64,000 nucleotides of DNA from a virus (lineage: Duplodnaviria; Caudoviricetes). Every line of letters starts with the position of its first letter. Within the stretch, counting starts at the first letter, position 1. The notes below the pieces were generated by a model. It saw nothing but the letters and a program-made list of their open reading frames with translations. It searched no databases and was not told the origin of the DNA. Positions 1-39,400 of this stretch are shown here, one piece after another. Where the stretch lies: IMG/VR virus record IMGVR_UViG_3300020577_013934, positions 13,623 through 77,622 of that record; one strand, 5' to 3'. Made by a program: the position numbers and the translations under genes.

Positions 1-408
1 GCTGGAAACACGCTCCAATCTATGCCCGTGGCCGCGTTTAACGCGATCATTGTCAGCGCAGCGGCGCCAACGACCACGCTTGGGGCCCGTGTTGTTTCAC
101 CCAGCAACACAGCTGCAACTTTGACGCAAGGTCCGTTCATGCCCCTGGCAGTTGGCGACGGAGGTGTTCGCTTGATTGCCAACTATACTACGTCGGCGGC
201 AAACACTGGGACCATGGCGTTTGTTCTGGGGGCCCCTCTGGCGACGATTCCAATTCAGGTGGCGGGCGTGACCACCCTCATTGACATGGTTCAGCAACTT
301 ATTGGGTTGTACCGAGTCTTCGATGGCGCTTGTTTGTCTTTCCTTGCCTTTTTTCCGGCCGCTACTGCATCTACTTTCGACGGGTCCGTTAACTTTGCTT
401 GGGGCTAA
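1..408 (+). CDS. Hypothetical, probably virion structural protein (5'-partial)
   Basis: Frame open from base 1 to TAA at 406-408; beta-rich A/T/G/V composition; followed 3 nt later by the next gene. Confidence 0.55.
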   Translation, partial: AGNTLQSMPVAAFNAIIVSAAAPTTTLGARVVSPSNTAATLTQGPFMPLAVGDGGVRLIANYTTSAANTGTMAFVLGAPLATIPIQVAGVTTLIDMVQQLIGLYRVFDGACLSFLAFFPAATASTFDGSVNFAWG

Positions 409-411
409 TCT

Positions 412-1716: not shown

Positions 1717-2270
1717 TGGCTACGGGTGTGCGGATCTACTGGGAAGCCGATACAGACCCTGATGTGCAGAATTACGAGATTCGTCGAGGGCCGCAAGAGG
1801 GGCAACCTATTGTCCTGTTGCAGGTCGTTCCTCATGCGATTCCGGGCCTTAATTGGTCTGCGACGAAAAATAGATTCTTTTACGACGACCCACAAGGGGG
1901 TCCCGTGAACGTCTATCAGGTTACGGCTGTTTCTTCTGGTGGGGTGGCGATCGGCCAGACAGATGTCTTTACGCCGTTTGGTCCGACGGCTGCGACACCA
2001 ATGAAGATTGCCGTGGATCACAACTATGGAGGGCCAGACGCTCTCCGGTTTGTGACCGAGAGTGGTGTTGGTATTCCAGACGCAGATGTGCGTGTGTACA
2101 CCAAACCCGATTATGACGCGGGACGTTTTGCAGCGCCTATGTATGTTGTTCAGACAGATGACCAAGGACGCTGGCGCCGACCTGCGTTCTTGGATGCAGG
2201 GTTGGATTACGTCCTTTTGATGGAGAAACGTAGCGCTTACGTGAGTCAACCTACGCAGATCACTGTTTGA
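1716..2270 (+). CDS. Hypothetical protein, Fn3/Ig-like beta-sandwich character
   Basis: TGATG coupling to the upstream gene; IYWEADTDPDVQNYEIRR and NVYQVTAV resemble Fn3 strands. Confidence 0.5.
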   Translation: MATGVRIYWEADTDPDVQNYEIRRGPQEGQPIVLLQVVPHAIPGLNWSATKNRFFYDDPQGGPVNVYQVTAVSSGGVAIGQTDVFTPFGPTAATPMKIAVDHNYGGPDALRFVTESGVGIPDADVRVYTKPDYDAGRFAAPMYVVQTDDQGRWRRPAFLDAGLDYVLLMEKRSAYVSQPTQITV

Positions 2271-2320
2271 GGTTCAGGCACAATAGCGCTGAGCCGGCTG
2301 TTAATGCCGCGCGGGGAACT

Positions 2321-2395
2321 TGGCGGGACGGGAGGGAGTCGAACCCACGACCATCGGGTTAACGGCCCGATGCTCTGCCACTGAGCTACCGCCCC
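2321..2395 (-). tRNA. trnN: tRNA-Asn (GTT)
   Basis: Minus strand folds as a cloverleaf: acceptor GGGGCGG/CCGTCCC, anticodon loop CCGTTAA, T-loop TTCGACT, encoded CCA end. Confidence 0.95.
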
Positions 2396-2507
2396 GAAAA
2401 GCGTTCGCTGCCGGAGCATTGGCCCCGGCGGTGCGATTCTTTGAGGTGGCGAGCAAGATGGACATGGATTCGTCTCTATCACTCAAGATAGAGGGACGTA
2501 AATACGT

Positions 2508-2921
2508 GTGTCGAGCAAAAAACACGCCACACGCATTTACGTCACGGACGTGCCTTTGTGTTATTCTGTGTTCGTGAGCTACGCAGCCAACAAGCTCTAC
2601 GTCGACGGACTGAAAGCCGAGTCTTGCACCGATTGCGGGCGCTCGTTCCCGTCGGACGCGATGGACTTTGACCATGTGCGCGGCGTGAAGGGCGCAAACA
2701 TCTCGGACTTGCTTGGCGGCTCGCGAGCCCGGCTTGAAACAGAGTTGCTGAAGTGCGAGCTGGTTTGCGCGACGTGCCACCGGCAGCGCGAGATGACTCG
2801 CCGGCTCGATGCGCATGTCGACGCCGCTGACGCATTTGACGCGGATGCGGCGCTACTTGAGGCGGGCGGACGCTTCGCGGGCCTGTTCGAGGCTAGAGCC
2901 GATACGCTTGAAAAGGGCTGA
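2508..2921 (+). CDS. HNH-family endonuclease
   Basis: CTDCG...MDFDHVRG...KCELVCATCH zinc/HNH signature; true start may be downstream of 2508. Confidence 0.75.
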   Translation: MSSKKHATRIYVTDVPLCYSVFVSYAANKLYVDGLKAESCTDCGRSFPSDAMDFDHVRGVKGANISDLLGGSRARLETELLKCELVCATCHRQREMTRRLDAHVDAADAFDADAALLEAGGRFAGLFEARADTLEKG

Positions 2922-3175
2922 TGGAGTATATACGTCATCCTCGGCGCGACCCTGGAGCACGGCCTCGGCCTTGGCGTGGCAGTCGTCCTCGGTGTCGCAG
3001 AGCGTGACGCCGTTGGCGGCAACGTAGCTCCCGTTGGGCATGTCCTCGCGGGGGTGGATGTGGTGGGCGTCGAGCGGTACGCCCGTGGCGCCGCGTCGCG
3101 CAGCATGCGCACGAGCTCGGCGTGGAACGGGTTGCGCCAGCTGGTGGCGACGTAGATCTGGATCTTGTCGGTCAT
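2853..3175 (-). pseudogene. Out-of-frame chimera: N-terminus MTDKIQIYVATSWRNPFH joined to an HNH C-terminus (LDAHHI...NGVTLC...CH)
   Basis: The coupled ATG at 3175 starts one frame; the HNH motif lies in another frame; the switch is near 3085-3095. Confidence 0.5.
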
Positions 3176-3389
3176 CGCGCAAGGGCCTCCTTCGCCTTCT
3201 GTTTGTTCTTGAAGCACGTGCCGCACTTTACCTTGGATGCGTCGCGCACGAGGTTGCGGGGCTCGAAGTGGCCGCACTCCAGTCGGAGCCAGCGGCAGCC
3301 GCGTTCGTCGACGCCCACGGCGAGCACGGCGCGCAGGGCCCCTGGAGCGAGGCCACCTGCATCGTGCCGGGATGCGACCGGCTGGCCAT
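3172..3389 (-). pseudogene. Small Cys-containing gene with an apparent 1-nt frameshift
   Basis: ATG at 3389 is coupled to the upstream stop, but the GC3-rich coding-like frame (LRAVLAVG...LECGH...KCGTC) is a different frame. Confidence 0.35.
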
Positions 3390-3937
3390 CAGCGCAGCAG
3401 GCCGTGCTTGAGCAGCACGCCGCGCACGACCGAGTGGAAGATCGTGTCCTTGAGGCGCTGCGCGGGCGGCAGCTGGTCGTGCGGCAGGAAGCAGGGGTGG
3501 GTCTTCTTGATCGGGTCCTCGACCTCGCCGTAGCTCCAGTCATGCTGCGCCTTGAACGTCAGCCAGCCCTCGTGGCTTGTCTCGGGCGAGTTGCCCGCGA
3601 GGATGCCCGTGACGCCGGAGCGCACGCTGTTGCGCAGTTCCTCGGGGCACTCCTCCCACGCCGGCTTGACGGCCTCGCCGAGCGCCTTGCGGTACTCGTT
3701 GTTGACGGTGTGCGCGGTCTTGGCGGCCAGCTCGATCACGTCCTGCTTGTCCATCGGTTCGGTCCTCTCGCGGTGCTCCACGAACTTGTGGAGGTACTCT
3801 CGTCGGTACGCTTCGAGCGTGGGGTAGTCAACGTTGAAGACCTTGGCGACGTACCGCACGTCGTCCCACGCCATGTCGCAGTCGAGCGAGGCGAGGAGCT
3901 GGACGCGGACGTGGCGCGGAATCTGGAGTCCGTACAT
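3389..3937 (-). CDS. RyR-domain-containing phage protein
   Basis: SPETSHEGWL...WSYGEVEDPIKKTHPCFLPHDQLPPAQRLKD matches the ryanodine-receptor repeat motif common in phages. Confidence 0.75.
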   Translation of the reverse strand: MYGLQIPRHVRVQLLASLDCDMAWDDVRYVAKVFNVDYPTLEAYRREYLHKFVEHRERTEPMDKQDVIELAAKTAHTVNNEYRKALGEAVKPAWEECPEELRNSVRSGVTGILAGNSPETSHEGWLTFKAQHDWSYGEVEDPIKKTHPCFLPHDQLPPAQRLKDTIFHSVVRGVLLKHGLLR

Positions 3938-3980
3938 GATACTTGACCAAGTTTACCCCGTAACGGAAACTACTCCAACC

Positions 3981-4538
3981 ATGAACCTCACCAACCAGCC
4001 CGCCTATCAGGCTCGCCACCCCAAGTCCGTTCTCGTCACGCCGGAGTTTCCGCACGGCGCGGCGGCGCTCAACGCGCTGTTCGCCAACGACGCGTGGGAG
4101 CGCGACGAGGACATCAACGACACGATCGGCGAGGAGGTCGATCTGTCCACGGACGAGGCTCTCAAGAACTTCCACGCAGGCCCCGGCGAAAAGACCAGCC
4201 ATCGCCTGCGCTGGCGCGCGCCGATCGAGACGCTGCGCGGGCCGTGCTCGCTCTGGAAGGAGACGCACGAGGTGACCAGCACGCAGACGGCGCTCATGGC
4301 CACGCTGCGCGAGCGCCGGAACGAGGCGCCGCCTGCGTCCGTCGACGACGCGGAGCGCCCGGCCGAGGCGCCGCCGCTCCCGAAGTCCTATACGGCGTAC
4401 AAGCTCGTCTGCGAGGTCGACAACCTGCTCGACGGTGACTTCCAGACGCTCACGCGCATCGCCGACCGCCACAACTGCTCGCTCGGCGCCGAGGCGCTGG
4501 GCGACAAGGTGCTGCTTCAGCTCGCGTTCGTGCGATGA
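3981..4538 (+). CDS. Hypothetical protein
   Basis: GC3-rich ORF; start re-assigned to ATG 3981; overlaps the next start. Confidence 0.6.
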   Translation: MNLTNQPAYQARHPKSVLVTPEFPHGAAALNALFANDAWERDEDINDTIGEEVDLSTDEALKNFHAGPGEKTSHRLRWRAPIETLRGPCSLWKETHEVTSTQTALMATLRERRNEAPPASVDDAERPAEAPPLPKSYTAYKLVCEVDNLLDGDFQTLTRIADRHNCSLGAEALGDKVLLQLAFVR

Positions 4539-8152: not shown

Positions 8153-8629
8153 ATGTCCAACAGGATCGTCTACATCATGCGCGGCCTCCCCGGCTCGGGG
8201 AAGTCGACCATGGCCAAGAACATGGCCGGCGCGACCGGCCGCGTCGTCTCGGCCGACGACTTCTTCATGGTCGACGGCGAGTACCGCTTCGACGTCGCCA
8301 AGCTCGGCGAGGCGCACGGCCAGTGCATGCGCCGCGCGATCGAGCACGTGCAGCGCGACGTCGAGGCCCCGCTCGTCGTCGACAACACCAACATCTCGAA
8401 CGTCGAGATCGCGCCGTACGTGCTGCTCGCGCAGGCGTACGGCTGGTTCCCGCAGATCCTGACGCTCCACTCCGAGAGCGCCTACGTCGTGAGCGTCTGC
8501 GCCAAGCGCAACTCTCACGGCGTCCCCATCGAGCGCGTCACGGCGATGTTCGAGCAGCTCCTGCGGGAGCTGCCCGCGACGCCGCCGTGGTGGAGCCAGC
8601 AGGTCCTGACGCCGGTGATCGGGTCGTGA
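8153..8629 (+). CDS. P-loop kinase (AAA_33 / polynucleotide-kinase-like)
   Basis: MRGLPGSGKST Walker A; SADDFF; VVDNTN. Confidence 0.85.
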   Translation: MSNRIVYIMRGLPGSGKSTMAKNMAGATGRVVSADDFFMVDGEYRFDVAKLGEAHGQCMRRAIEHVQRDVEAPLVVDNTNISNVEIAPYVLLAQAYGWFPQILTLHSESAYVVSVCAKRNSHGVPIERVTAMFEQLLRELPATPPWWSQQVLTPVIGS

Positions 8630-9581: not shown

Positions 9582-9770
9582 ATGAAGGTCAAGCTACACA
9601 ACAACCACCCGGGCGCCGTCGCCGCGACGGACAACACCCTCAAGACCCTCGGCGGTGGCGTCCACGAGCTCAAGCGCGACCCGAACGGCAACGTCATCTT
9701 CGACGAAGATGGGTTTGCCGAGGTCGCGACCACCAACCCTGGCTTCTTCAAGTTCGCTTACACCCGCTAG
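9582..9770 (+). CDS. Small hypothetical protein (possible TAG read-through to 9797)
   Basis: Leaderless ATG 9582; ends ...FKFAYTR-TAG-GYVAEVRD-TGA. Confidence 0.6.
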   Translation: MKVKLHNNHPGAVAATDNTLKTLGGGVHELKRDPNGNVIFDEDGFAEVATTNPGFFKFAYTR

Positions 9771-9803
9771 GGCTACGTGGCAGAAGTACGCGACTGACCC
9801 TTC

Positions 9804-10152
9804 GGGGGCGAAACGGCTTCGACGTGGAGAACTAGGTCGAGACTGCGTCACAGGGCTGGGCCACCTCACGGCTTACGTAGAAACGCGAACGACAACGCGA
9901 TGCTCGCAGCGGCCTGATAAGCCCCTGCGACGTCCTCGGGGCAGGCCGGCTCGGGTCGGCTTCGGGGGCGCAATCAATCCGAGCTAGCGAGCGCGGGCGG
10001 TGCGGCCGGCGCGGGCGAGACACGCAGCACCAGACCAGACGAGACCCCGCCCGTGGGGATGCTCGGCGGGAGAAGAGACACGCGGGACAGGTGACGTAGA
10101 CGTCCGGCGGAACGCTTCGCGGACCCGGGTTCGACTCCCGGCGCCTCCACCC
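9804..10152 (+). ncRNA. ssrA: tmRNA (SsrA), tag peptide ANDNAMLAAA
   Basis: 5' GGGGGCGAAACGGCTTCGAC; 3' GGTTCGACTCCCGGCGCCTCCACC; G3:U acceptor pair; tag frame GCG AAC GAC AAC GCG ATG CTC GCA GCG GCC TGA TAA at 9885-9920. Confidence 0.95.
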
Positions 10153-10246: not shown

Positions 10247-11017
10247 ATGAGCACCTTCCGTTTCGTCGACGCCGGCATGTACTGCCTCCAGCAGACCGTC
10301 TCCGGGACGGGTGTGTTCAGCGGCGTGCGCCTCGGCTACGCGACGTACAGCTACAACTCGGGTGGGGCCCAATTCGACGTGCGCTTCCCGCACCTCGGCA
10401 CCGACGGCAACGCGTACAAGTTCCAGATGGACGCGCCGCCGAACACTGTGCCGGTGGCGAAGACGACCGCGTTTTTCGACAAGTCGTCCAAGACGCTGCG
10501 CGTGCAGCTGCGTGGCACGTCCGCCGCGATCACGTCCACTGCGCAAGAGGTCGTCGACGCGATCAACGGGCTCGACCGCCCGCTTTACGGCGCCGCGCTC
10601 GTCGCGGGCGCGGTAATCCCTGCCAGCCTCGCGCCCGTCAACCTCGCGGGCGGCCTCGACCCCGACCTCGCGGCCGGCTACGCGTTCCCCAAGCTCGCGC
10701 CCCCGGCCAACACGAACGGCGGCCTGTTCTACTTCGACCAGAACCGTCCCTGGAAGCTCCAGACCGTGGGCGGCGCGCTCGGCGCAGACGCGACGCTCAA
10801 GGTGTCCATCGTCAACGTGGACAAGGCGCTGCGCGTCATCGGCACGGCGGCCGTGGTACTGTCGTCGCAGAACCTCACGACCCCGTGGCAGCCGACCGGC
10901 ACGCGCATCGACGTGCCGGTGATGCCGGGGCAGGCCGTGCAGGTTACCGCCAACACGCAGGGCACGGTCTTCGTGACGGCGGCCTCCCTCACCGCGATGG
11001 ACAACATCTCCGACTGA
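10247..11017 (+). CDS. Putative virion structural protein, paralog of 15055-15849
   Basis: Shared motifs VSGTG.F.G, TA.EV..A.N, GG.DP, PP.N.N.G; TATACT -10 box 7 nt before the ATG. Confidence 0.6.
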   Translation: MSTFRFVDAGMYCLQQTVSGTGVFSGVRLGYATYSYNSGGAQFDVRFPHLGTDGNAYKFQMDAPPNTVPVAKTTAFFDKSSKTLRVQLRGTSAAITSTAQEVVDAINGLDRPLYGAALVAGAVIPASLAPVNLAGGLDPDLAAGYAFPKLAPPANTNGGLFYFDQNRPWKLQTVGGALGADATLKVSIVNVDKALRVIGTAAVVLSSQNLTTPWQPTGTRIDVPVMPGQAVQVTANTQGTVFVTAASLTAMDNISD

Positions 11018-11220
11018 TGGGCGACGCGAAGTTCACACCCCCGACCAACGCCTCGACGATCGCCGACGGGCCGTGCCCGTTCTGTTCCGGCACCTACGCC
11101 GTCTGCCGCGACAACGACACGGGCGACCCGTTCCTCACGCACACGATGGAGCCGTGCGCGCAGTTCGTCGCGTTCGAGCCCGACGTGTACCTGCGGTGCG
11201 TCCGCCAGGGCGTGAATTGA
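11017..11220 (+). CDS. Small Cys-containing hypothetical protein
   Basis: TGATG coupling; CPFC motif. Confidence 0.5.
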   Translation: MGDAKFTPPTNASTIADGPCPFCSGTYAVCRDNDTGDPFLTHTMEPCAQFVAFEPDVYLRCVRQGVN

Positions 11221-11245
11221 CAGCGCGCCCGGCGCTGCCTACGCT
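11217..11245 (+). promoter_or_regulatory. Sigma70-type promoter
   Basis: TTGACA(11217)-17 nt-TACGCT(11240). Confidence 0.7.
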
Positions 11246-11350
11246 CCTCCCATGATCACCGACCTGATGTAGCTGTCGCCGTCGCGCGGACCTCCCTCCG
11301 AGAGCCGGTCTCCCACCGCGTTCTCTCGTCCGAGTTCAGGAGGTTCCGTC

Positions 11351-11638
11351 ATGTCGAAGATCAAGCTGTTCATCAAGTCTCAGGCCGAGGCCCAGTCGTC
11401 GCACCGCCGCGCGCGTCCCCGCGACGCCGGGTGGGCCTCGAACCGCCTCGCGATCCGCCGCACCGCCCGCGCGGCGCTGCTGCTCTACGCGTTCTCGCGC
11501 GGCGTCGCGTACACCAAGCTGGAGCGCCGGGCGCACGAGCCACCGCCCGTGTGGCTCGCCGCCAAGCTCTCGGCGGAGCTGTGCGAGGCCCCCGTCACGG
11601 AAGGAGCGCTGTCCGCATGGACGACCGCTGCTACGTGA
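11351..11638 (+). CDS. Hypothetical basic protein upstream of the Pth2-like gene
   Basis: AGGAGG RBS; ARAALLLYAFSRGVAY motif. Confidence 0.65.
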   Translation: MSKIKLFIKSQAEAQSSHRRARPRDAGWASNRLAIRRTARAALLLYAFSRGVAYTKLERRAHEPPPVWLAAKLSAELCEAPVTEGALSAWTTAAT

Positions 11639-11925
11639 TCACGCGGTCCGACCTGCCCGTGCCCCAGCAGGCCGTGCAGGCGGCGCACGCCGCCCAGACC
11701 TTCGCCGGTCGCCACCCCGGCGACTACGCGCAGACCACGCTCGTCGTGCTCACCGTGCCCGACGAGCCGGCGCTCCGGGCACTGCGCGCACGCTTCGAGG
11801 CCACGCCCGCGCGCCTCGCCGCGTTCCACGAGCCCGACCGGGGCGGCGAGCTCACGGCGTTCTGCGCGGCCGGCGCCCCGGCGCGGCGGCTGTGCGCGCG
11901 CCTGCCGATGGCCTTCACGCCGTAA
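11617..11925 (+). CDS. Peptidyl-tRNA hydrolase type 2 (Pth2)-like protein
   Basis: AAGGAG RBS; YVITRSDL..QQAVQAAHA...LVVL.VPDE..L...FHEPD...LTA pattern of phage Pth2-like proteins. Confidence 0.7.
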   Translation: MDDRCYVITRSDLPVPQQAVQAAHAAQTFAGRHPGDYAQTTLVVLTVPDEPALRALRARFEATPARLAAFHEPDRGGELTAFCAAGAPARRLCARLPMAFTP

Positions 11926-11945
11926 AGCCGCCTACGCTTTCGTGC

Positions 11946-12269
11946 GTGAAGGCATCGCGCTACGCGCTCGACCACCTCCCCGCCGACAACCGACGCCTCG
12001 CCCTGCGCCTCTACAAGACTGAGATCCGCGCGCTGCTCGACGCGGCGAAGGACCGGCCCTGCGCGCGCTGCCGACAGGCGTTCCCGATCTGCTGCATGCA
12101 GTTCGACCACCTGCCAGGCACGCGCAAGCGCTTCAACCTGAGCGAGGCGCGCGCCGGGTTGATCCCGCGCCACGTCGTGTTACAAGAGCTCAAGAAGTGC
12201 GAGGTCGTGTGCGCGAACTGCCACGCAATCCGCGAGGACGAGCGGCGGCGTGTGTATGTCGCTGCGTGA
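11946..12269 (+). CDS. HNH-family endonuclease
   Basis: PCARC...MQFDHL...KCEVVCANCH; same family as 2508-2921; start uncertain. Confidence 0.75.
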   Translation: MKASRYALDHLPADNRRLALRLYKTEIRALLDAAKDRPCARCRQAFPICCMQFDHLPGTRKRFNLSEARAGLIPRHVVLQELKKCEVVCANCHAIREDERRRVYVAA

Positions 12270-12270
12270 G

Positions 12271-12341
12271 CGCCCCGGATGGGAGTCGAACCCATCTCAC
12301 CGCGTTTAGAGCGCGGTGCCTGACCGCTAGGCTACCGGGAC
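12271..12341 (-). tRNA. tRNA with CUA anticodon (amber suppressor), Glu/Gln-like body, CCA not encoded
   Basis: GTCCCGG TA GCCT AGCGGTC AGGC A CCGCG CTCTAAA CGCGG TGAG ATGGG TTCGACT CCCAT CCGGGGC G; anticodon at 12309-12307. Confidence 0.88.
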
Positions 12342-12769
12342 TTGTTGCGCCCACAGTATGTGGGTAGCTGCGAGTCGCAGTTGGGACAGAGTAGACGGAG
12401 ATTGCGGAGTCGGTTGTCGTTGTTGTGCCCGTTGATGTGATCGAGGCGCAGGGTAAGCGGCTTTCCGCGCCACGTATTGATCCCGCACAACGCACACACG
12501 TGTTTGAGTAGTCCCGCTTTCAGCAAGCGGCGCTTGAGAGGCCCACGGGCGTACGTGCTGTTGGCGACCAACACGGCTTTGAGCGGGGTGTCGGTGCTTC
12601 GGCGTGAGCGCCCGTGTGCTTTTCCAGTCCAGTGTGTCGTGTCGAGTTTACGCCGTTCGACTTCGCGTTTGACGTAGCGGTAGTTGCTTCCGACGATCGC
12701 GCGCCCGAGGGTACGTATGACGCCTGCGATGGAGACGTTCTGTCGTACGGCTCGCTCGAAGGCGTCCAT
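12332..12769 (-). CDS. HNH homing endonuclease
   Basis: CALCG...LRLDHINGHNNDNRLRNLRLLCPNCDSQ; its TAG stop lies inside the 5' end of the tRNA; lower GC. Confidence 0.9.
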   Translation of the reverse strand: MDAFERAVRQNVSIAGVIRTLGRAIVGSNYRYVKREVERRKLDTTHWTGKAHGRSRRSTDTPLKAVLVANSTYARGPLKRRLLKAGLLKHVCALCGINTWRGKPLTLRLDHINGHNNDNRLRNLRLLCPNCDSQLPTYCGRNKSR

Positions 12770-12774
12770 TGGCG

Positions 12775-13290
12775 CTAACCGAGGGTGACCCGTCCGCCGG
12801 GCGGGGTGCGGGGCATGTCGCCCGCCGAGGCGAGGCGCACGCGGCGCTGGAGGTGCTCGGTGATGTCCGTTTCGTTCTCGTACGAGACGACGAGCACGTC
12901 CTCGGCCACGGGCAGCACACCGCTCGTCTCCAGGTACGAGCGCACGAAGCGGCAGTTCTGGTAGTAGACGCCCAGGCCCCAACCGCCCTGGTCGCGGAAC
13001 GCCCAGCCGATGCCGAAGAGCTTCTCCTGCCCGATGCCGGCGAGCGACGTGCGGTGGAGGTTCTCGACGAACGTCTGGAGCTGCGTCTGCATGCGCGGGG
13101 CGCGCGTCAGGACGCGGCGGATCTCGATGCCGCGCTCCAGGCCCGGCGTGAACGAGCGGCAGCCCGTCACCATGCCGAAGACGGCGTTCTGGCCCGCGCT
13201 GTCGTACTGGGGTCCGCCGAGGAACACCAGCGCGTTCTGGACCTCGAACGGCTGGATCTGGGAAGGGTCGATCTCGTTGTCGTTGCTCAT
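12775..13290 (-). CDS. Putative tail-tube-like structural protein
   Basis: Weak similarity by eye to 30170-30955 (ALVFLGGP..FGMVT vs TLLLAGP..LGMFT); leaderless TAGTGT -10. Confidence 0.4.
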   Translation of the reverse strand: MSNDNEIDPSQIQPFEVQNALVFLGGPQYDSAGQNAVFGMVTGCRSFTPGLERGIEIRRVLTRAPRMQTQLQTFVENLHRTSLAGIGQEKLFGIGWAFRDQGGWGLGVYYQNCRFVRSYLETSGVLPVAEDVLVVSYENETDITEHLQRRVRLASAGDMPRTPPGGRVTLG

Positions 13291-13324
13291 GCCGACGACA
13301 CTACCACGACAGGGTAACTTGTCG

Positions 13325-13530
13325 AAGTATGGAGTTGGGCCGGTCTCTCCCGGCTGTCACCCCGCCGATCACAGTTCCCTGGGGTTGGGACGTCTACGCG
13401 GATCAGTCGCGCTAACGGGGTTGTAGGCCCACTCTCCCGCTTCGGTTGTCGTCGAGACGGTGTCGCGCGAGGGGGGATCGCGCGTGTCCGCCACGGGCCA
13501 CTGACAAGAGTGGGTCCACGCTACCCGGCG
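13325..13530 (-). ncRNA. Candidate structured non-coding RNA
   Basis: About 200-nt intergenic stretch with several stems, e.g. GCCGG-GAGAGA-CCGGC (13339-13354) and cgcgcga/tcgcgcg (13464-13484); strand inferred from the flanking genes. Confidence 0.35.
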
Positions 13531-13542
13531 TTCTTTACGGCG

Positions 13543-14367
13543 TCAAGCCACCGGCGTGCGCTGGTGGTAGCCGTAGTCGATGCGCTGGGCGATCTTCTTT
13601 GGGTCGAAGTCGAGCGGGTCGTCCATCCACGCGATCTCCGGCGCGTGCACGCGCACCGCGACCCCAGCGAGGTCTGCCGACCGGAGGTCGTTGACGTAGA
13701 CCTCGTCGCTCAGGATACCCGCCGCGCGCAGCCCGATGTCGATCGCGCTGCGCCCCTTCTGCACGTCCCACTCGGCCACGTCGCCCCGCAGCGGCGAGGT
13801 CAGCACGACGTCGACCTCGGTGGCGCCGGCCTTCACGGCGTCGAGGATCGGCGTGACGTTGCGCACGCCGCCGTCGACCCACAGGTCCCCGTCGATGTAC
13901 GACGGCCGGAACGCGACCGGGAACGCCGCGCTCGCCATGACCCACTCGGCGAGTCGGTCGTCGCGCTCGGTGATCGTGCGGTAGTGGCCCGTCTTGAGGC
14001 TGACGGCGCCGAGGCGCAGCCGCACGCCGGAGCGGCGGATGACGACCTCGCTCATCGCGCCTTCGACCAGCGCGCGCAGCGGCGCGGTGTCGTACATCGC
14101 GCCCTGCCACAGCAGCGCGAGCGCGCCCATGGTCCAGCCGGTGTAGATCGACCGGTTGCCGGTGATGCGGCGCCAGAACGCCTCCAGCGTCATGGCCCCC
14201 GCGCGCTGGGTTTGCACACTGAAGTGCGCCATATGTGCAGCGTTGATCGCGCCGACCGAGACGCCCGCGATCACGTCCCATCGACCACCTTGCTCGGTGA
14301 GTCGCTTCAGCACACCGACTTGGTACGCGCCGCGCGCGCCGCCACCTGAGAGCACGAGAGCTTTCAT
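13543..14367 (-). CDS. Patatin-like phospholipase
   Basis: LVLSGGGARG, GVSVG nucleophile, ASAAFP, DGG motifs. Confidence 0.93.
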   Translation of the reverse strand: MKALVLSGGGARGAYQVGVLKRLTEQGGRWDVIAGVSVGAINAAHMAHFSVQTQRAGAMTLEAFWRRITGNRSIYTGWTMGALALLWQGAMYDTAPLRALVEGAMSEVVIRRSGVRLRLGAVSLKTGHYRTITERDDRLAEWVMASAAFPVAFRPSYIDGDLWVDGGVRNVTPILDAVKAGATEVDVVLTSPLRGDVAEWDVQKGRSAIDIGLRAAGILSDEVYVNDLRSADLAGVAVRVHAPEIAWMDDPLDFDPKKIAQRIDYGYHQRTPVA

Positions 14368-14404
14368 GTTGAAAAGCGTAATCGACGGCAGCTACCTTTT
14401 CGAC

Positions 14405-15013
14405 ATGCTCGCATCTCACGTGCTTGTTTTGCTCGCGGAGCTCACCGTGCAGACGATCGGAGGCTGGTTGGCCGCCGTGCTCGTCGGTGGCGGCGGACTC
14501 TGGATTCTTTTTTTGCTCATGGTCCGAGGGTTTTGGGACAAGACCGGGAAGCCGGCGATCAAGGACTTGATCGTGGCCCTGCACGCGGAGCCGGAGTATG
14601 TGAAAAAACAAAGAGAGGAGATACAGAGCGTGATTCAAACGTGGCATAACGAGCCTGAGCAGCTCAAGGTGCGTATTGAGTTCGTAAAGGGCGTTATCGA
14701 CAATGAGGTTCGCCGGGACGACGGCGTGATTCATAGAGATATCACGACTAAGGTCACAGCTCTGGAGGCGGCTCTTGCCAAGAAAATCGATGATATGGCC
14801 GTCAAGTTTGACCACTTTCAGGAGTCGCAAGAGCAGCGAGACAAAGAAAACCGTGAGTTCAGCACGCAGGTACTTGCGAAACTTGCGCGCATTGAGGGCG
14901 CATTTCAAACAATGACGAACCGGAGACTTGGTGGCACCGGTGAGAGCTACACGAGTCTGCCCGCGCAGCGTCCGTCGAAGCCCGGCAGTAGTGGTTCGTC
15001 CTCGGAGGGTTGA
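14405..15013 (+). CDS. Membrane-anchored coiled-coil protein (possible lysis accessory)
   Basis: Hydrophobic N-terminal segment followed by a charged helical region; lower GC; start uncertain. Confidence 0.55.
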   Translation: MLASHVLVLLAELTVQTIGGWLAAVLVGGGGLWILFLLMVRGFWDKTGKPAIKDLIVALHAEPEYVKKQREEIQSVIQTWHNEPEQLKVRIEFVKGVIDNEVRRDDGVIHRDITTKVTALEAALAKKIDDMAVKFDHFQESQEQRDKENREFSTQVLAKLARIEGAFQTMTNRRLGGTGESYTSLPAQRPSKPGSSGSSSEG

Positions 15014-15054
15014 GTACGTCTTTTAGTTTGTTGACTAGCTACAATCCTTTCAAG

Positions 15055-15849
15055 ATGTACCCGAGCGCTGGTCAAAAGTTTCTTATCCAGTACGCGGTGT
15101 CCGGGACTGGAGCCTTCAACGGCTCCGAGTATGGGCGCGCGCGACTCACGGTCGATCCGGGCCTCGGGCCCAACGCGATCGTCTACTTCGCGTCGAAGCT
15201 CTACGGCACTCCGTCCAACGCGCTGACGGTGGAGTACGTCGATGCGGGCGCGGGCGTGACTGTCATTGCGACCACCGTTACGCAGGTCGGCTCGGCGATC
15301 CGTGTGCTGCTTCGGCGCAGCGCTGTCGCGATCCTCGCGACCGCCGCCGAAGTCGCCAACGCGGTCAACGCCTTTACCGCGTACAGTTCGCCGGGCTTTG
15401 CCGTTGCAGCGCGCGCCGGAGGCACTGGCGCCTCCGTCGTCGCGGCGATCGGACCGCTGACCTTCACCGGCGGCGCCGACCCTACGCGCATCGGGTCGCA
15501 GTTTCTTTGGACTCCGCCGGTCAACGTCAATGCGGGCTTCGTGCAACTGGAGAACCCGTTCCCGATGTGGATTCTTGGTTTCTCCGCGCGCTTCAGTGTG
15601 CTGCTGCCGGGACCCTTCACAGTGACCCTCCAGCGCGTCCGCCTGGAGGCGGACCTGACGCCGATCCTCGCTGAGGCGGTCAACCTCTTTGTTTTCAATG
15701 GCTTGACGCCTAGTGCCGTTGATATTGCATACACTGACGTCAAGCAGCTGATTCACCCCGGCCAGGGCATCCTGGTGGCCACGAGCGCGCCGCTCGCGGG
15801 CTTCTTCAACATCGACGTGATGCGGGCGGCCGAGTTCCCGTACGCTTGA
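15055..15849 (+). CDS. Putative virion structural protein, paralog of 10247-11017
   Basis: Shared motifs with 10247-11017; TACAAT -10 box 9 nt before ATG 15055. Confidence 0.6.
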   Translation: MYPSAGQKFLIQYAVSGTGAFNGSEYGRARLTVDPGLGPNAIVYFASKLYGTPSNALTVEYVDAGAGVTVIATTVTQVGSAIRVLLRRSAVAILATAAEVANAVNAFTAYSSPGFAVAARAGGTGASVVAAIGPLTFTGGADPTRIGSQFLWTPPVNVNAGFVQLENPFPMWILGFSARFSVLLPGPFTVTLQRVRLEADLTPILAEAVNLFVFNGLTPSAVDIAYTDVKQLIHPGQGILVATSAPLAGFFNIDVMRAAEFPYA

Positions 15850-15854
15850 GGACC

Positions 15855-16304
15855 ATGAACTCCTACGAGTACCTCCTGAAGTCCGCCAACGAACAGCTCG
15901 GTTACGCGGCGCAGCCGCCGACGTCGACCCTCACGCGCTCCGGCGGCCCCGGCGCGCCTGCGCTGCCGCCCGCGCCATCTGTTGCGCCGACGACATCCGC
16001 GCCGCCGCCGTCCCCGTCGTCCAAGATCGGGGGCCTGCTCGACGATGTCGAGACGGCGCTGCGCCGTCGCCGCCTCCTACGCGCCGCGCAGGACTCCGCG
16101 CTCGCGAGCGCGGCGCCCGCCGCTGAGCGCTACCGCGCCGCGCGCAACACCGCACTCAAGGGCGTCGGGTTACACAGCCTGGGCCTCGGGCTCGGCGGTC
16201 TCGCGCTCTACGGCGCCGGGCGGCATCTGATGAACCGAGCGGCGCCTTCCGCGCCGGCCCACCAGCCATCGTCCGAGGACTTCGTGGGCTCGTACGGCGG
16301 GTAG
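15855..16304 (+). CDS. Hypothetical protein with K-x-A site and Gly-zipper segment
   Basis: GAGGA RBS; LLKSAN; LGLGLGGLALYGAG. Confidence 0.55.
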   Translation: MNSYEYLLKSANEQLGYAAQPPTSTLTRSGGPGAPALPPAPSVAPTTSAPPPSPSSKIGGLLDDVETALRRRRLLRAAQDSALASAAPAAERYRAARNTALKGVGLHSLGLGLGGLALYGAGRHLMNRAAPSAPAHQPSSEDFVGSYGG

Positions 16305-16315
16305 TACCCTTGGGT

Positions 16316-16804
16316 ATGCCCGTCATTGGCTACCCCGTCACCTCCACCATCCCCACGCGCGCCGAGGTGCGGCGTTTCATGCGCGACTACCCCGGTCCCG
16401 TGAAGGACACGGGGGTGCTGAACGTGCTGCTCGACAACGTCGAGTTCTCGGACACCGACATCGACGCGGCGCTCGTCAACGCGGTCGACTTGTACAACGT
16501 CATGACGCCCATGACGACGCTAAGCATGGCGGCGATCCCGCGCCCGTTGATTCTCTACGGCGCGATCTCGCACCTGATGCTCTCTGAGGGCATGCGCCAG
16601 TTGCGCAACCAAGCCACTGTGCAGGACGGTAACGTCCAACCCATCGGCATCGACGACAAGCAGGCGCTCTACCAGCAGTGGGCCGACTGGATGCGCAACC
16701 AATTCCTGACGATGACCCGCGCCGTGAAGACGCAGCGCAACATGGAGGCGGCGTGGGGCGGCCTCAGCTCCGGCTACCTCAATACGACGCGCAGCCACGG
16801 CTGA
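16316..16804 (+). CDS. Putative head-tail adaptor (neck) protein
   Basis: Helical 162-aa protein with EVRRFMRD, EFSDTDI and QLRNQ...DG motifs typical of head-completion proteins; leaderless TACCCT -10. Confidence 0.45.
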   Translation: MPVIGYPVTSTIPTRAEVRRFMRDYPGPVKDTGVLNVLLDNVEFSDTDIDAALVNAVDLYNVMTPMTTLSMAAIPRPLILYGAISHLMLSEGMRQLRNQATVQDGNVQPIGIDDKQALYQQWADWMRNQFLTMTRAVKTQRNMEAAWGGLSSGYLNTTRSHG

Positions 16805-18922: not shown

Positions 18923-19701
18923 TGGCTTTACCGCGTAAGACGTTCGGCGGAACGACGTTCATCATCGACCGCCCCAAGGGCACCGTGAAGGTCTGGCCGC
19001 AGCCCGACGGCGGCGAGAAGCGCTTCGTCTACCCGTGCGACTACGGGTACTTCCCGCGCCTCAAGGGCGAGGACGGCGAGGGCCTCGACGCGTTCGTCGG
19101 CGACGACCCGGCCGGCCACTACGAGGCGTTCCAGAAGCTCAAGCCGCGCGACGGCGGCGGCATGGAGCTCGACGAGACGAAGTTCCTCGTGGGGGTCTCC
19201 GACGCGGAGCGCGAGGCGATCTACCGCCTCTACGGCGACGAGACCCACGCGCGACGCGTCTTCCGCGACATGGCGCACCTGCGCGACGCGCTGGAGAAGT
19301 TCGAGCCGAAGAAGAAGGAGCGATACGTGAAGACGGCACAGCTGGCGACCCTCAACGGCGTGACGCGCAGCCTCGACGGCTGGGCGCGCCACTTCGCCGA
19401 CCGCATCAAGCGCGCGGCCCTCGCCGAGCGCGGGCTGGTCGCGGCGGCGCGCAAGGAGGCGGCGCTCAAGACCGTGCTCGCGCGCTACAAGCTCAGCGAC
19501 CTCAAGCGCGCCGACATCGACAAGCTGATCCGGGGCCACGTCGTCGCGATGCCCAACACCGGGCGCCAGACGCCGGCCGAGGAGGCGTCGATCGCCGACC
19601 GCCTGACGCGCGTCTTCGACCGCGCCGACGCCAAGACGCAGCCCACCGGCGAGGAGTCTTCGATCGGGCAGACGCCCCTCGAAGGCAGCGTGTCGCTGTG
19701 A
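18922..19701 (+). CDS. Inorganic-pyrophosphatase-like domain protein with C-terminal K-x-A/RYxL segment
   Basis: TGATG coupling; DRPKG...YPCDYGYF...GEDGEGLDAFVG...DETK. Confidence 0.65.
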   Translation: MALPRKTFGGTTFIIDRPKGTVKVWPQPDGGEKRFVYPCDYGYFPRLKGEDGEGLDAFVGDDPAGHYEAFQKLKPRDGGGMELDETKFLVGVSDAEREAIYRLYGDETHARRVFRDMAHLRDALEKFEPKKKERYVKTAQLATLNGVTRSLDGWARHFADRIKRAALAERGLVAAARKEAALKTVLARYKLSDLKRADIDKLIRGHVVAMPNTGRQTPAEEASIADRLTRVFDRADAKTQPTGEESSIGQTPLEGSVSL

Positions 19702-20003
19702 GCCTGGAGAAGCTCGCGCGGGCCCGCGCCGCGCGGCGCGTCGTGGACCTGTACCTGAAGACGGCGAGCCCCGAGCTGGTGCAGCGCGCGTTCCCCGCGC
19801 TCTCGGCGGCGTTCGATTCGTACAGCGCGGTCCGCGACCAGGAGCGGCAGGCCGCGCTCGCCCGCCAGTTCTCCGCGTTCCCCGGCCTCATGGCCGAGTA
19901 CACCATGTCCAACCAGGGCATGACGCCGAACACCAATCTTGGACAAGTTTCGGCCACCCCGTCGGGACACCATCATCGACGGCACCGGCACCATTCGGGT
20001 TAG
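19698..20003 (+). CDS. Hypothetical protein with K-x-A sites
   Basis: GTGA overlap; EKLA, LKTAS; His-rich C-terminus. Confidence 0.55.
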   Translation: MSLEKLARARAARRVVDLYLKTASPELVQRAFPALSAAFDSYSAVRDQERQAALARQFSAFPGLMAEYTMSNQGMTPNTNLGQVSATPSGHHHRRHRHHSG

Positions 20004-20012
20004 ACTCCAGGT

Positions 20013-20417
20013 ATGCACGCCACCCCGTTCGACGTCTGCCTCCGCTGCCGCGAGACGCGCGTGGTGCCCGCGTTCAGCACCACGCCGGTCGAGCCCCGCT
20101 GCGCCTGCGGCGGCCCCGGCGCGCCCGCGCCCGGCGCCTCCGGCGTCGACTTCGAGCAAGCCGTCTCGGACGCCTACGCGGCGTTCGACGCGGAGTGCGC
20201 GGGCGAGGACCCCCGCCAGACGCTGCTGCGCATGCAGCACTTCGCGTCGAGCGCGGCGGTGGCGATGCTCGAAGGCAACACCAAGCTCTACGTGTCGTGC
20301 CTCGTGAGCAACGCCGCGCTGTCGCGGCTGCTCACGGCGCGCGCCCTCACCCCCGACGAGACCGACGATGCCGACGCCGACGAACACGTGGCTGGCGCGC
20401 CTGCGCGCGATCCGTAA
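20013..20417 (+). CDS. Hypothetical protein (Cys pairs)
   Basis: CLRC...CAC; GC3-rich. Confidence 0.5.
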   Translation: MHATPFDVCLRCRETRVVPAFSTTPVEPRCACGGPGAPAPGASGVDFEQAVSDAYAAFDAECAGEDPRQTLLRMQHFASSAAVAMLEGNTKLYVSCLVSNAALSRLLTARALTPDETDDADADEHVAGAPARDP

Positions 20418-39010: not shown

Positions 39011-39400
39011 TCAGTCGGTGTCGGGCCCGTTGAGGATGGTGTCCTCGAACGCTTCCCAGGCGAGCTTGGTGGCCTCGTCGCCGCTCTCGGGCGCGGCGCC
39101 CGCTGCCCGCGTCTCGCTCGGCGCCCCGAGGGGCGTCGGGCGCTCGGGCGCAGCGGTCTTCAGCATCTTGCCGAGGACCGTCTGCATCTCCGGGTCGTCG
39201 GCCGCCGCGAGCTTGTCGCGCACCGTGGCCGGGAGGTCTTCGCCCGTGCGCTGCCGGTACAGCTCGCGCATGAGGTCCACGCTGCTGGCCGTCTTGGTCT
39301 CGGGCGTCGCGGCGGGCGCGGCGGCCGGCGCCGGCTGCGCGTCGAGGTCGTCGGCGAGCAGGTCGAGGGCGGTGGCGATCTTGGTGAGCGCGGTGGTCAT
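39011..39400 (-). CDS. Small head/scaffold-like protein with K-x-A sites
   Basis: KIA, KTAS, KTAA, KLA; TACACT -10 upstream. Confidence 0.6.
   Translation of the reverse strand: MTTALTKIATALDLLADDLDAQPAPAAAPAATPETKTASSVDLMRELYRQRTGEDLPATVRDKLAAADDPEMQTVLGKMLKTAAPERPTPLGAPSETRAAGAAPESGDEATKLAWEAFEDTILNGPDTD

What the first reader, a model, noticed from the sequence alone, without database searches (positions are those of the whole stretch)
12271..12341. Amber-suppressor tRNA(CUA) in a phage that still uses TAG as a stop
Seen: a canonical cloverleaf with loop CTCTAAA (anticodon CUA), G1-C72, U2, G73, a short variable loop and no encoded CCA. TAG still ends about a dozen genes here (stops at e.g. 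7825, 12775, 16304, 21596, 24446, 30170, 42531, 50796, 53250, 59611), and I found no long gene needing TAG as sense. Established: a GUCCC... acceptor with G73 resembles bacterial tRNA-Glu, amber derivatives of such tRNAs tend to insert Gln/Glu, and code-15 phages carry such tRNAs. Inference: this is partial or timed read-through rather than full recoding. It could be a late switch, a way to disturb host TAG-terminated genes, or an early stage of code reassignment.
Basis: partly seen in the sequence, partly recalled or inferred. Interest (0 to 1): 0.8.

Follow-up and report, generated by a model that had tools for sequence, protein, structure and literature searches.

The report
Amber-suppressor tRNA in standard-code phage
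An uncultured, GC-rich large phage that still ends many genes with TAG carries a well-formed tRNA that reads TAG, brought in beside a mobile nuclease gene, and one small conserved gene seems to depend on it.

Summary
The tRNA is real: window 12271-12341, minus strand, anticodon CUA, canonical cloverleaf (Aragorn; Rfam 59.4 bits). Contigs of three studies cover it. Its body is closest to tRNA-Glu and its anticodon loop is CUCUAAA.

The genome is not recoded. TAG ends 16 of 92 called genes, these stops are mostly shared with a relative that lacks the tRNA, and code 11 fits better than code 15.

New here:
- The tRNA lies in a 538-bp indel together with an HNH endonuclease gene whose TAG stop sits inside the tRNA. 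Homologues of that HNH usually sit directly upstream of tRNA genes.
- One 71-codon gene (9582-9797) has TAG where 41 of 41 homologues covering that position have Gln. The eight codons after the TAG are intact.
- One of 27 relatives (G007) carries a different tRNA(CUA) as its only tRNA.

Best reading: a partial amber suppressor, probably inserting Gln, with at least one client codon. This fits a first step of recoding or the buffering of a nonsense mutation.

Amber-suppressor tRNAs in standard-code jumbo phages are already in print (XacN1, RsoM2USA), so this is a new member of a known kind. Expression and charging are untested.

Other first-stage notes on this same genome flagged the same tRNA and the same candidate target. 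I did not look for it on other DNA of the scan.

The parts
12271..12341 (-). tRNA with anticodon CUA (amber suppressor). Glu-type body, anticodon loop CUCUAAA, G73, 4-nt variable loop, no encoded CCA.
   Evidence: Aragorn; Rfam RF00005 at 59.4 bits; closest to E. coli tRNA-Glu among 11 E. coli tRNAs; covered by contigs of three studies.
12332..12769 (-). Free-standing HNH endonuclease gene (145 aa), missed by my gene caller. Its TAG stop (12332-12334) is nucleotides 8-10 of the tRNA.
   Evidence: ORF and translation; phrog_10822 HNH endonuclease, E 1.1e-42; 239 homologues.
12242..12778 (.). Indel relative to the closest relative G001. About 538 bp (tRNA plus HNH gene) stand where G001 has 39 bp.
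   Evidence: blastn synteny: window 13554-12779 matches L003 9753-10515, and window 12241-12024 matches L003 10554-10771.
9582..9797 (+). 71-codon gene of an uncharacterised small-protein family. It has an in-frame TAG at 9768-9770 (codon 63), then 8 intact codons (GYVAEVRD) and TGA. This is the candidate client of the suppressor.
   Evidence: G001 has CAG at that codon. It is the only in-frame stop when 110 G001 proteins are laid on this genome. Gln stands there in 27 of 27 aligned homologues and 14 of 14 further ones. 62-aa and 71-aa alleles both exist.
12775..13290 (-). 171-aa gene of unknown function, upstream and co-oriented with the HNH gene and the tRNA. It ends in TAG here and in TGA in G001.
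   Evidence: 89% identical protein in G001.
11946..12269 (+). Second HNH endonuclease gene, convergent with the tRNA. Present in G001 as well.
   Evidence: phrog_3106, E 8.6e-22; synteny; tblastn 79% identity in G001.
11617..11925 (+). phrog_1866 protein (weakly PTH2-like family). Its homologue in relative G007 carries an in-frame TAG 413 nt upstream of that phage's own tRNA(CUA).
9804..10151 (+). tmRNA gene (context). It starts 6 nt after the TGA of the TAG-containing gene.
   Evidence: Aragorn; Rfam 84.8 bits. Also present in G001 and G006.

Best explanation
This is a working amber-suppressor tRNA carried by a phage that otherwise uses the standard code.

Shown:
- It is a canonical tRNA with a Glu-type body and the loop CUCUAAA.
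- It sits with a free-standing HNH endonuclease gene in a 538-bp indel that the closest relative lacks.
- Homologues of that HNH sit directly upstream of tRNA genes of many kinds. The pair therefore looks like a mobile HNH-tRNA cassette of the kind thought to spread tRNA genes among phages.
- TAG remains a stop for 16 of 92 genes.
- One 71-codon gene has TAG exactly at a Gln codon that is invariant in its family, and the codons after it are intact.

Inferred:
- The tRNA is transcribed with the upstream minus-strand genes, gets CCA from the host, and is charged by a host enzyme, most likely with Gln.
- It competes with release factor 1, so that UAG is read through in a fraction of passages.
- This yields the full 71-aa protein from the TAG-bearing gene, at the price of some C-terminally extended products from TAG-ended genes.
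- The phage therefore decodes UAG ambiguously. This is either the first step of amber recoding or the buffering of a CAG-to-TAG nonsense mutation.
For: 1. The tRNA is real and canonical.
2. Contigs of three studies cover it, and no listed difference lies in it while the flanks vary.
3. Its loop has A36-A37-A38, whereas E. coli tRNA-Glu has CUUUCAC. It therefore differs from a Glu tRNA at position 38 as well as in the anticodon.
4. The phage carries no release factor and no GluRS/GlnRS gene in the part seen, so host enzymes must act.
5. TAG at 9768-9770 corresponds to CAG in G001. The next 8 codons give the identical peptide, and the 3 nucleotide differences there are all synonymous third positions.
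6. It is the only in-frame stop found when all 110 G001 proteins are laid on this genome.
7. Gln stands at that position in 41 of 41 homologues that cover it.
8. The TAG allele occurs as two distinct protein variants on 4 contigs.
9. A second clade member, G007, has a non-homologous tRNA(CUA) as its only tRNA, with a TAG-interrupted phrog_1866 gene 413 nt upstream.
10. A passage of Borges et al. says TAG suppressors are glutaminylated in E. coli, and that a standard-code phage with a suppressor may precede recoding.
Against: - There are no expression, charging or suppression data.
- The client rests on one codon. Its intact 8-codon tail could simply mean that the mutation is recent.
- I could not test whether the TAG allele and the tRNA travel together, because the single read-laying run covered 11000-14600 only.
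- Relative G006 has no tRNA at all, yet has an in-frame TAG in the orthologue of the 884-aa protein, with 91 of 131 residues identical after it. An in-frame TAG with an intact tail therefore exists without a phage suppressor.
- The G007 case is weak: +4 bits in the PHROG match, and 11 of 24 identical after the stop, which is within the noise of short tails.
- The 16 TAG-ended genes have no nearby back-up stops (median extension 77.5 codons). Strong suppression would be costly.
- TAG is not depleted here, unlike in the published route to recoding.
- Only 45% of the genome is seen.
Confidence: 0.55

Rival explanations
1. Selfish cargo. The tRNA merely hitch-hikes with the HNH homing endonuclease and gives the phage nothing. 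The TAG in the small gene is an ordinary inactivating mutation.
For: - The tRNA and HNH gene form an indel absent from the closest relative.
- In 15 of 21 closer HNH homologue loci, a co-oriented tRNA starts within -38 to +29 nt of the HNH stop, whatever the tRNA's anticodon.
- I found no homologue of this tRNA in 27 relatives or in three collections.
- TAG stops are neither purged nor backed up.
- G006 shows an in-frame TAG without any phage tRNA.
Against: - The loop CUCUAAA is not what one anticodon mutation of a Glu tRNA would give.
- The tRNA is covered by contigs of diverged strains. A weak joint in X14 suggests a variant that lost most of the HNH gene but kept the tRNA.
- The TAG falls on the family's invariant Gln, and the invariant G-Y after it is still encoded.
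- A second, unrelated tRNA(CUA) is the only tRNA of G007 and has no copy of this HNH beside it.
Confidence: 0.27
2. Hidden full recoding. The unseen 55% of the genome holds late or lysis genes written with TAG as Gln (code 15), and the tRNA serves those.
For: Only 45% of the genome is in the record. In published recoded phages the recoding is concentrated in structural and lysis genes.
Against: - The seen part already holds structural genes: protease-like and baseplate-hub-like hits. These use TAG as a stop.
- G001 adds about 48 kb of the same genome type and is standard code at density 0.903.
- Complete relatives G006, G007 and G011 all fit code 11 better than code 15.
Confidence: 0.05
3. A role other than decoding. 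For example, a decoy or spare part against tRNA-cutting host defences, or mainly an RNA-processing signal: RNase P cleavage at the tRNA's 5' end would cut the stop codon off the HNH message.
For: - The HNH stop codon lies inside the tRNA here and in L044, L055 and L056, and in Erwinia phage Hena1 as annotated.
- Phage tRNA loci linked to homing endonucleases act as anti-defence genes, according to the listed abstract of PMC13096335.
- A kinase of the polynucleotide-kinase type and a tmRNA gene lie nearby.
Against: A processing signal or decoy needs no CUA anticodon and no A36-A37-A38 loop. Nothing here points to a defence that cuts a CUA tRNA.
Confidence: 0.08
4. Artefact: a sequencing or assembly error created the CUA anticodon.
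For: None found.
Against: Contigs from three studies cover the tRNA, and no listed difference lies in it.
Confidence: 0.01

Closest known systems
tRNA(CUA) genes of the cultured jumbo phages Xanthomonas phage XacN1 (two copies) and Ralstonia phage RsoM2USA (one copy)
   Same: An amber-suppressor tRNA in a large phage that uses the standard code and still ends genes with TAG. XacN1 has 18 amber stops (passages read).
   Different: - Not homologous in sequence. XacN1's suppressors resemble its own tRNA-Lys (57 of 76 identical), whereas this one resembles tRNA-Glu.
- The XacN1 authors found no target by in-silico read-through. Here one candidate target exists.
- Here the tRNA sits in an HNH indel, not in a tRNA array.
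Suppressor tRNAs of stop-codon-recoded phages (code 15 crAss-like, Lak and others), and the standard-code Agate phage with a TGA suppressor (Borges et al., preprint 10.1101/2021.08.26.457843)
   Same: A phage-encoded suppressor read by host enzymes, with TAG expected to become Gln. A suppressor in a standard-code genome is proposed there as the step before recoding.
   Different: - Those phages have low GC and a depleted TAG or TGA stop, with many in-frame recoded stops in late genes.
- This phage has about 70% GC. TAG makes up 17% of its stops, and only one in-frame TAG is seen.
Free-standing homing endonucleases in phage tRNA gene regions (T4 SegB; HNH genes in mycobacteriophage tRNA clusters)
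   Same: An endonuclease gene next to a tRNA gene, with presence or absence differing among close relatives. Such enzymes are held to spread the neighbouring tRNA genes (SegB: abstract in the listing; passage in PMC6409571).
   Different: - The cargo here is a single suppressor tRNA.
- The endonuclease ORF ends inside the tRNA.
- Cleavage and homing are untested.
- SegB is a GIY-YIG enzyme, not an HNH enzyme.
Zeta crAss-like phages with apparently inactive suppressor tRNAs (PMC12386605)
   Same: A suppressor tRNA in genomes where the matching stop is not used as sense (passage read).
   Different: There the stop is absent or is followed shortly by TAA. Here TAG is a frequent stop without back-up stops.

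Membership tests
Phage amber-suppressor tRNA (Sup-CUA) | Canonical tRNA fold with anticodon CUA | tested here: met
   Aragorn and Rfam.
Phage amber-suppressor tRNA (Sup-CUA) | Is expressed, aminoacylated and reads UAG | not testable with these tools
   All runs laid were assembled contigs, which cannot show RNA ends or levels.
Code-15 (TAG=Gln) recoded phage | Many genes need TAG as sense; code 15 gives better gene models than code 11 | tested here: not met
   Code 11 gives density 0.847 and score 12404; code 15 gives 0.823 and 11371. For 13 of 16 TAG stops a non-coding frame follows. One in-frame TAG was found by homology.
Code-15 (TAG=Gln) recoded phage | TAG rare or absent as a true stop | tested here: not met
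   TAG ends 16 of 92 closed genes, and 8 of these TAG stops are shared with G001.
Code-15 (TAG=Gln) recoded phage | Code-change helpers (release factor 2, a tRNA synthetase) in some members | tested here: not met
   PF00472 and PF00749 give 0 matches in 5 records, including this one; the controls rang. Only 45% of the genome is seen.
Standard-code phage carrying a suppressor tRNA (XacN1, RsoM2USA type) | tRNA(CUA) together with the standard code and TAG in use as a stop | tested here: met
   papers.
tRNA-Pyl | Atypical fold (short variable loop of 3 nt, tiny D loop, no G18-G19 or T-psi-C consensus; features recalled, not taken from a call) and pyl genes | tested here: not met
   The cloverleaf has a standard D loop with GG and a TTCGA T loop. 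I did not search for pyl genes.
tRNA-Glu-type body | Sequence closest to tRNA-Glu; G1-C72, U2, G73, 4-nt variable loop | tested here: met
   52 of 71 identical to E. coli tRNA-Glu, score 29, against 14 or less for 10 other E. coli tRNAs. Only 11 tRNA species were compared, and no isotype-specific model was available.
tRNA-Glu-type body | Which amino acid it accepts | not testable with these tools
   Gln is inferred from the CAG/TAG correspondence and from the passage.
Homing-endonuclease and tRNA cassette | HNH catalytic motif and family membership | tested here: met
   phrog_10822, E 1.1e-42; motif visible in the translation.
Homing-endonuclease and tRNA cassette | Present or absent among close relatives at a fixed site | tested here: met
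   538 bp here against 39 bp in G001.
Homing-endonuclease and tRNA cassette | Homologues linked to tRNA genes | tested here: met
   31 of 35 loci have a tRNA within 2 kb. In 15 of the 21 closer loci a co-oriented tRNA starts within -38 to +29 nt of the HNH stop.
Homing-endonuclease and tRNA cassette | Site-specific cleavage and homing | not testable with these tools
   Needs co-infection or an in-vitro cleavage assay.

The most novel reading that the evidence does not exclude
A clade of GC-rich large phages repeatedly picks up unrelated amber-suppressor tRNAs (this phage and G007) without giving up TAG as a stop. Each then puts a small conserved gene under amber control: here the invariant Gln63 codon of a 71-aa protein next to the tmRNA gene, and in G007 a PTH2-like gene beside the tRNA. 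That would be ambiguous UAG decoding used as a gene switch, or caught as the very first step of recoding. It would arise in a genome where TAG is not depleted, which goes against the published order of events (depletion first).
Probability: 0.3. Interest if true: 0.75.

Novelty: new member of a known kind. Interest (0 to 1): 0.5.

Why it matters
Suppressor tRNAs in standard-code phages have been reported, but no client gene has been identified for them. The XacN1 authors looked for one and found none.

Here a concrete, testable client exists: one TAG on an invariant Gln codon, with both alleles present in nature. This makes the first step of stop-codon reassignment open to experiment, using an amber reporter, mass spectrometry of one peptide, and strain-level linkage.

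The link to an HNH endonuclease also suggests how suppressor tRNAs could move between phages.

Tried and rejected
**Looking for relatives of the tRNA**
- Exact-pattern scans gave nothing useful. In the viral collection I got one chance coding match (L002) and one unrelated tRNA-Gly that shares the D arm (L043).
- Genome collection: 0 hits in 2 scans. Metagenome collection: 0 hits in 2 scans.
- blastn against E. coli genomes found no match.
- blastn against phage records found only 77% identity over about 62 nt to tRNA-Lys of Vequintavirinae, with shared D and T arms but a different acceptor stem and discriminator.

**A corrected error**
- My first pattern search wrongly suggested that no relative has a tRNA(CUA). 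Whole-record Aragorn on G007 corrected this.
- Wider patterns then found no further case.
- Only G001, G004, G006, G007 and G011 were scanned whole. The other 22 relatives were searched by patterns alone.

**In-frame TAG candidates**
- Gene pair 19698-20003 | 20013-20417 and pair 39778-39966 | 39397-39777 are each joined in frame across a TAG. G001, which lacks the tRNA, has the same TAG in both, so I read them as ordinary stops.
- The pair at record positions 2975-3901 | 3908-4465 has no homologue in 27 relatives and stays unresolved.
- The amber minigene at 11252-11272 from another first-stage note: I counted by eye, in the sequence, G or C at the third position of 17 of the 26 in-frame spacer codons. 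The spacer holds the next gene's ribosome-binding site, so I did not count it as a target.

**Other negative results**
- The sigma-70 promoter scan of 11300-14600 found none.
- Pfam gave no PTH2 hit for 11351-11635, 11431-11922 or 11617-11922. Only G007's homologue reaches 21.5 bits, below the cut-off of 23.
- PDB and Pfam gave nothing for the small-protein family.
- The search for related loci with the small protein of G001 and with P0129 brought no new locus.
- My gene caller produced no genes for G004 (GC 0.49), so that record has no stop statistics.
- The stop-crossing homology scan has a high noise level for short tails at all three stop codons.
- Host identity was not determined.
- Supplementary tables of the papers were not opened. 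Those of Borges et al. and of the XacN1 paper may list further standard-code phages with suppressors.

Full report
**1.

Aragorn finds three RNA genes in the window:
- tRNA-Asn(GTT) at 2321-2395 (-);
- a tmRNA at 9804-10151 (+);
- a tRNA with anticodon cta at 12270-12341 (-).

Rfam's tRNA model matches 12271-12341 (-) over its full length at 59.4 bits (gathering score 29, E 2.7e-10), with no non-canonical pair marked. The drawn cloverleaf shows G1-C72, U2-G71, G73, a 4-nt variable loop and the anticodon loop CUCUAAA. No CCA is encoded. Aragorn's 'Pyl' label only reflects the anticodon. The fold is a standard one with GG in the D loop and TTCGA in the T loop.

**2. What the DNA is**

The window is bases 13623-77622 of a 77,622-bp linear IMG/VR virus record that CheckV rates 45% complete. 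GC is about 70% over most of it. It encodes:
- a multisubunit RNA polymerase (a 1514-aa beta/beta-prime fusion and a 601-aa piece);
- an SNF2 helicase and a patatin-like lipase;
- proteins with weak hits to head-maturation protease and baseplate hub.

Complete relatives are 161-191 kb long.

**3. The genome is not recoded**

- I trained a codon-usage gene caller on the record itself. It gives 93 genes with stops TGA 67, TAG 16, TAA 9 and 1 open end, at coding density 0.847.
- After 13 of the 16 TAG stops, the same frame scores as non-coding. In the other three, an in-frame gene follows, compared with 3 of 67 for TGA and 1 of 9 for TAA.
- Treating TAG as sense lowers coding density (0.823) and summed score (11371 against 12404).
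- The same holds for relatives G001, G006, G007 and G011.
- No release-factor domain and no GluRS/GlnRS catalytic domain is encoded in this record or in four relatives, while the control genomes rang.

**4. Closest relative and the indel**

A neighbouring protein led to IMGVR_UViG_3300033070_001371 (G001; 119 kb, 69% complete). It is syntenic at about 75-89% nucleotide identity. G001 has a tmRNA and tRNAs Asn, Gln(CTG) and Tyr, plus a doubtful Lys, but no tRNA(CUA).

Window 13554-12779 and window 12241-12024 match L003 9753-10515 and 10554-10771. So 538 bp here stand where G001 has 39 bp. Those 538 bp hold the tRNA and an ORF that my caller had missed.

That ORF lies at 12332-12769 (-) and encodes 145 aa with an HNH motif. 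It matches phrog_10822 at E 1.1e-42. Its TAG stop is nucleotides 8-10 of the tRNA.

The patatin gene next door (13543-14367) is also missing from G001.

**5. The HNH family travels with tRNA genes**

- The HNH protein has 239 homologues in the protein collection.
- Of 35 viral loci that encode a relative, 31 have at least one tRNA within 2 kb.
- Among the 21 closer ones (L044-L064), 15 have a co-oriented tRNA that starts from 38 nt before to 29 nt after the end of the HNH stop codon.
- In L044, L055 and L056 the stop is again TAG at tRNA nucleotides 8-10.
- In Erwinia phage Hena1 an annotated HNH remnant overlaps tRNA-Lys by 10 nt in the same way.
- The neighbouring tRNAs are of many kinds: Arg, Gln, Thr, Tyr, Ser, Leu.
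- Suppressor tRNAs lie within 2 kb of the HNH homologue in five loci: CUA in L045, L046 and L053, UUA in L049 and L060. In L045, L049 and L053 the suppressor is the co-oriented tRNA directly downstream. None is homologous to this tRNA.

Homing endonucleases inside phage tRNA regions, and their presumed role in spreading tRNA genes, are in print. For SegB I saw the abstract in the listing. For PMC6409571 I read a passage.

**6. Origin and identity of the tRNA**

- No homologue turned up in 27 relatives by BLAST or by exact patterns in three collections.
- Against 11 E. coli tRNA species fetched from MG1655, tRNA-Glu(UUC) is clearly closest: 52 of 71 identical, score 29, the rest 14 or less.
- Only 11 species were compared, and two of the alignments (Lys, Thr-UGU) were degenerate under my scoring.
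- The loop differs from the E. coli Glu loop (CUUUCAC) at position 38 as well as in the anticodon.
- That A36-A37-A38 favours reading of U-starting codons and i6A modification is recalled knowledge, not a result of a call.

**7. Not a sequencing error**

Twenty public runs from ten studies hold part of 11800-13400, mostly riverine, freshwater and wastewater metagenomes. I laid four runs on 11000-14600:
- X1 has a contig identical over the whole stretch, but it may be the source sample.
- X7 (another study, wastewater) has a 1361-bp contig over 12071-13425 with 20 differences. The 17 that are listed all lie outside the tRNA; 3 are not shown.
- X14 (a third study, freshwater) has a contig over 11380-12358 with 25 differences, none of the listed ones in the tRNA.
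- 110 difference rows of that output were not shown.
- A weak joint in X14 (12370 to 12691, side 36) hints at a variant without most of the HNH gene.
- A better-supported joint in X7 (13719 to 14328, side 247) removes part of the patatin gene.

**8. TAG stops are old and are not being purged**

Among orthologue pairs between this phage and G001, stops are TGA/TGA 41, TAG/TAG 8, TAA/TAA 5, TAG/TGA 4 and TGA/TAG 1. The TAG share is 16 of 92 here and 17 of 109 in G001. The frames after TAG run on for a median of 77.5 codons, so there are no back-up stops.

**9. One gene seems to need the suppressor**

One of the four TAG/TGA pairs is different in kind. The small gene just before the tmRNA (9582-9770) stops at TAG where G001 has CAG. 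Eight further codons then give GYVAEVRD and TGA in both phages. Their three nucleotide differences are all synonymous third positions.

When all 110 G001 proteins are laid on this genome by tblastn, this is the only alignment with an in-frame stop. The reverse test gives one spurious weak hit. A wider test with five genomes gives the same clean case for this genome.

The protein collection holds 71-aa forms with Gln (P0124, P0126, P0129, P0125, P0122). It also holds two distinct 62-aa forms: P0127, which is the window's own, on 3 contigs, and P0128, with one further substitution, on 1 contig.

A HMMER search of 1.84 billion representatives found 44 relatives. I aligned 24 of them, chosen for a length of 63-78 aa, together with three cluster members and my TAG=Q reading. 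The invariant columns are T19, Q63, G64 and Y65. Of the 20 longer hits left out, 14 cover the position and all 14 have Gln; the other 6 do not reach it.

So the TAG stands on a Gln that is kept in 41 of 41 homologues, directly before the family's most conserved residues. The family has no Pfam or PDB relative.

**10. A second suppressor in the clade**

Whole-record Aragorn on the complete relative G007 (186.8 kb, terminal repeats) finds exactly one tRNA, and it is a tRNA(CUA) at 167089-167163. It has acceptor stem GCGCGCG, A73 and the same loop CUCUAAA, but is not homologous to this one. My first pattern search had missed it. Wider patterns found no further case in the 27 relatives.

G007 also uses the standard code, and TAG ends 31 of its 221 closed genes. 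No copy of this HNH gene lies beside its tRNA.

A 52-codon gene lies 413 nt upstream of that tRNA and ends in TAG. Read through, it continues for 46 codons. Its match to phrog_1866 then grows from profile positions 9-66 (30 bits) to 9-111 (34 bits), and Pfam PTH2 reaches 21.5 bits, below the cut-off of 23. Its homologue in this window is 11617-11925. This second case is suggestive only.

**11. Evidence that cuts the other way**

- G006 (complete) has a tmRNA but no tRNA by Rfam.
- Yet its orthologue of the 884-aa protein carries an in-frame TAG with 91 of 131 residues identical after it. An ATG-ATG nine codons later could restart a separate gene.
- So an in-frame TAG with a conserved tail can exist without a phage suppressor.
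- The scan for homology crossing stops gives many weak hits at all three stop codons.

**12. What is known**

- Xanthomonas jumbo phage XacN1 has two tRNA(CUA) genes and 18 amber stops. Its authors found no target by in-silico read-through (PMC5852040, passage).
- Ralstonia phage RsoM2USA has one tRNA(CUA) (PMC8504454, passage).
- Borges et al. (preprint, passages) report a standard-code phage with a TGA suppressor as a possible precursor of recoding. They propose that low GC first depletes the stop codon. They also note that TAG suppressors are glutaminylated in E. coli.
- Zeta crAss-like phages can carry seemingly inactive suppressors (PMC12386605, passage).
- Cook et al. give suppressor frequencies in code-15 phages (PMC11210395, passage).
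- Twelve papers hold 'suppressor tRNA', 'homing endonuclease' and 'phage' together. I read passages of three of them, and those do not describe an endonuclease-linked suppressor cassette. I cannot speak for the rest.

**13. Verdict**

The tRNA and the continued use of TAG as a stop are confirmed. The phenomenon as such is already reported, so this is a new member of a known kind.

What this case adds:
- a plausible route of acquisition, the HNH-tRNA cassette;
- a specific candidate client codon;
- a hint of recurrence within one phage clade.

I put 0.55 on a working partial suppressor with at least this one client, and 0.27 on selfish cargo plus a pseudogene. The remainder goes to hidden recoding, a non-decoding role or an artefact.

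Noticed in passing
window 12332-12341: The HNH gene's TAG stop is tRNA nucleotides 8-10 (U8-A9-G10). RNase P cleavage at the tRNA's 5' end would therefore leave the HNH message without a stop codon. L044, L055, L056 and Erwinia phage Hena1 have the same layout.
   Followed up: partly
L045, L046, L049, L053, L060: Homologues of this HNH in other viral contigs (89-529 kb) lie next to other suppressor tRNAs: CUA in three loci, UUA in two. I did not check whether those phages are recoded.
   Followed up: no
G006 (IMGVR_UViG_3300009540_000001) 77842-80445: The orthologue of the window's 884-aa protein (46401-49055) has an in-frame TAG at 80047, and the homologous C-terminal 130 residues follow it. 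This phage has no tRNA gene. It is either a split gene or read-through by other means.
   Followed up: partly
G007 (IMGVR_UViG_3300013121_000044) 166518-167163: A PTH2-like (phrog_1866) gene is interrupted by TAG. It lies 413 nt upstream of that phage's only tRNA, another tRNA(CUA).
   Followed up: partly
window 13543-14367: A patatin-like phospholipase gene (Pfam E 1.3e-35) is absent from relative G001. In the wastewater run X7, a contig joint (13719 to 14328) partly deletes it.
   Followed up: partly
window 8153-8626: A kinase of the AAA_33 / polynucleotide-kinase type (phrog_2071, phrog_505) lies just upstream of the tmRNA region. It may be RNA-repair related.
   Followed up: no
window 1-2850 (record 11402-16475): A stretch with lower GC (0.52-0.63) and no confidently called gene surrounds tRNA-Asn. 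G001 has Asn-Gln-Tyr tRNAs at the matching place.
   Followed up: no
G004 (IMGVR_UViG_3300044939_000165): Its RNA polymerase piece is 87% identical in protein to the window's, yet the record's GC is 0.49 against about 0.70 here. My GC3-trained gene caller failed on it.
   Followed up: no
window 11252-11353: The minigene ATG-5 codons-TAG lies in frame with the next gene, as another first-stage note says. By my own count from the sequence, 17 of the 26 in-frame spacer codons have G or C at the third position, and the spacer holds the next gene's ribosome-binding site.
   Followed up: partly
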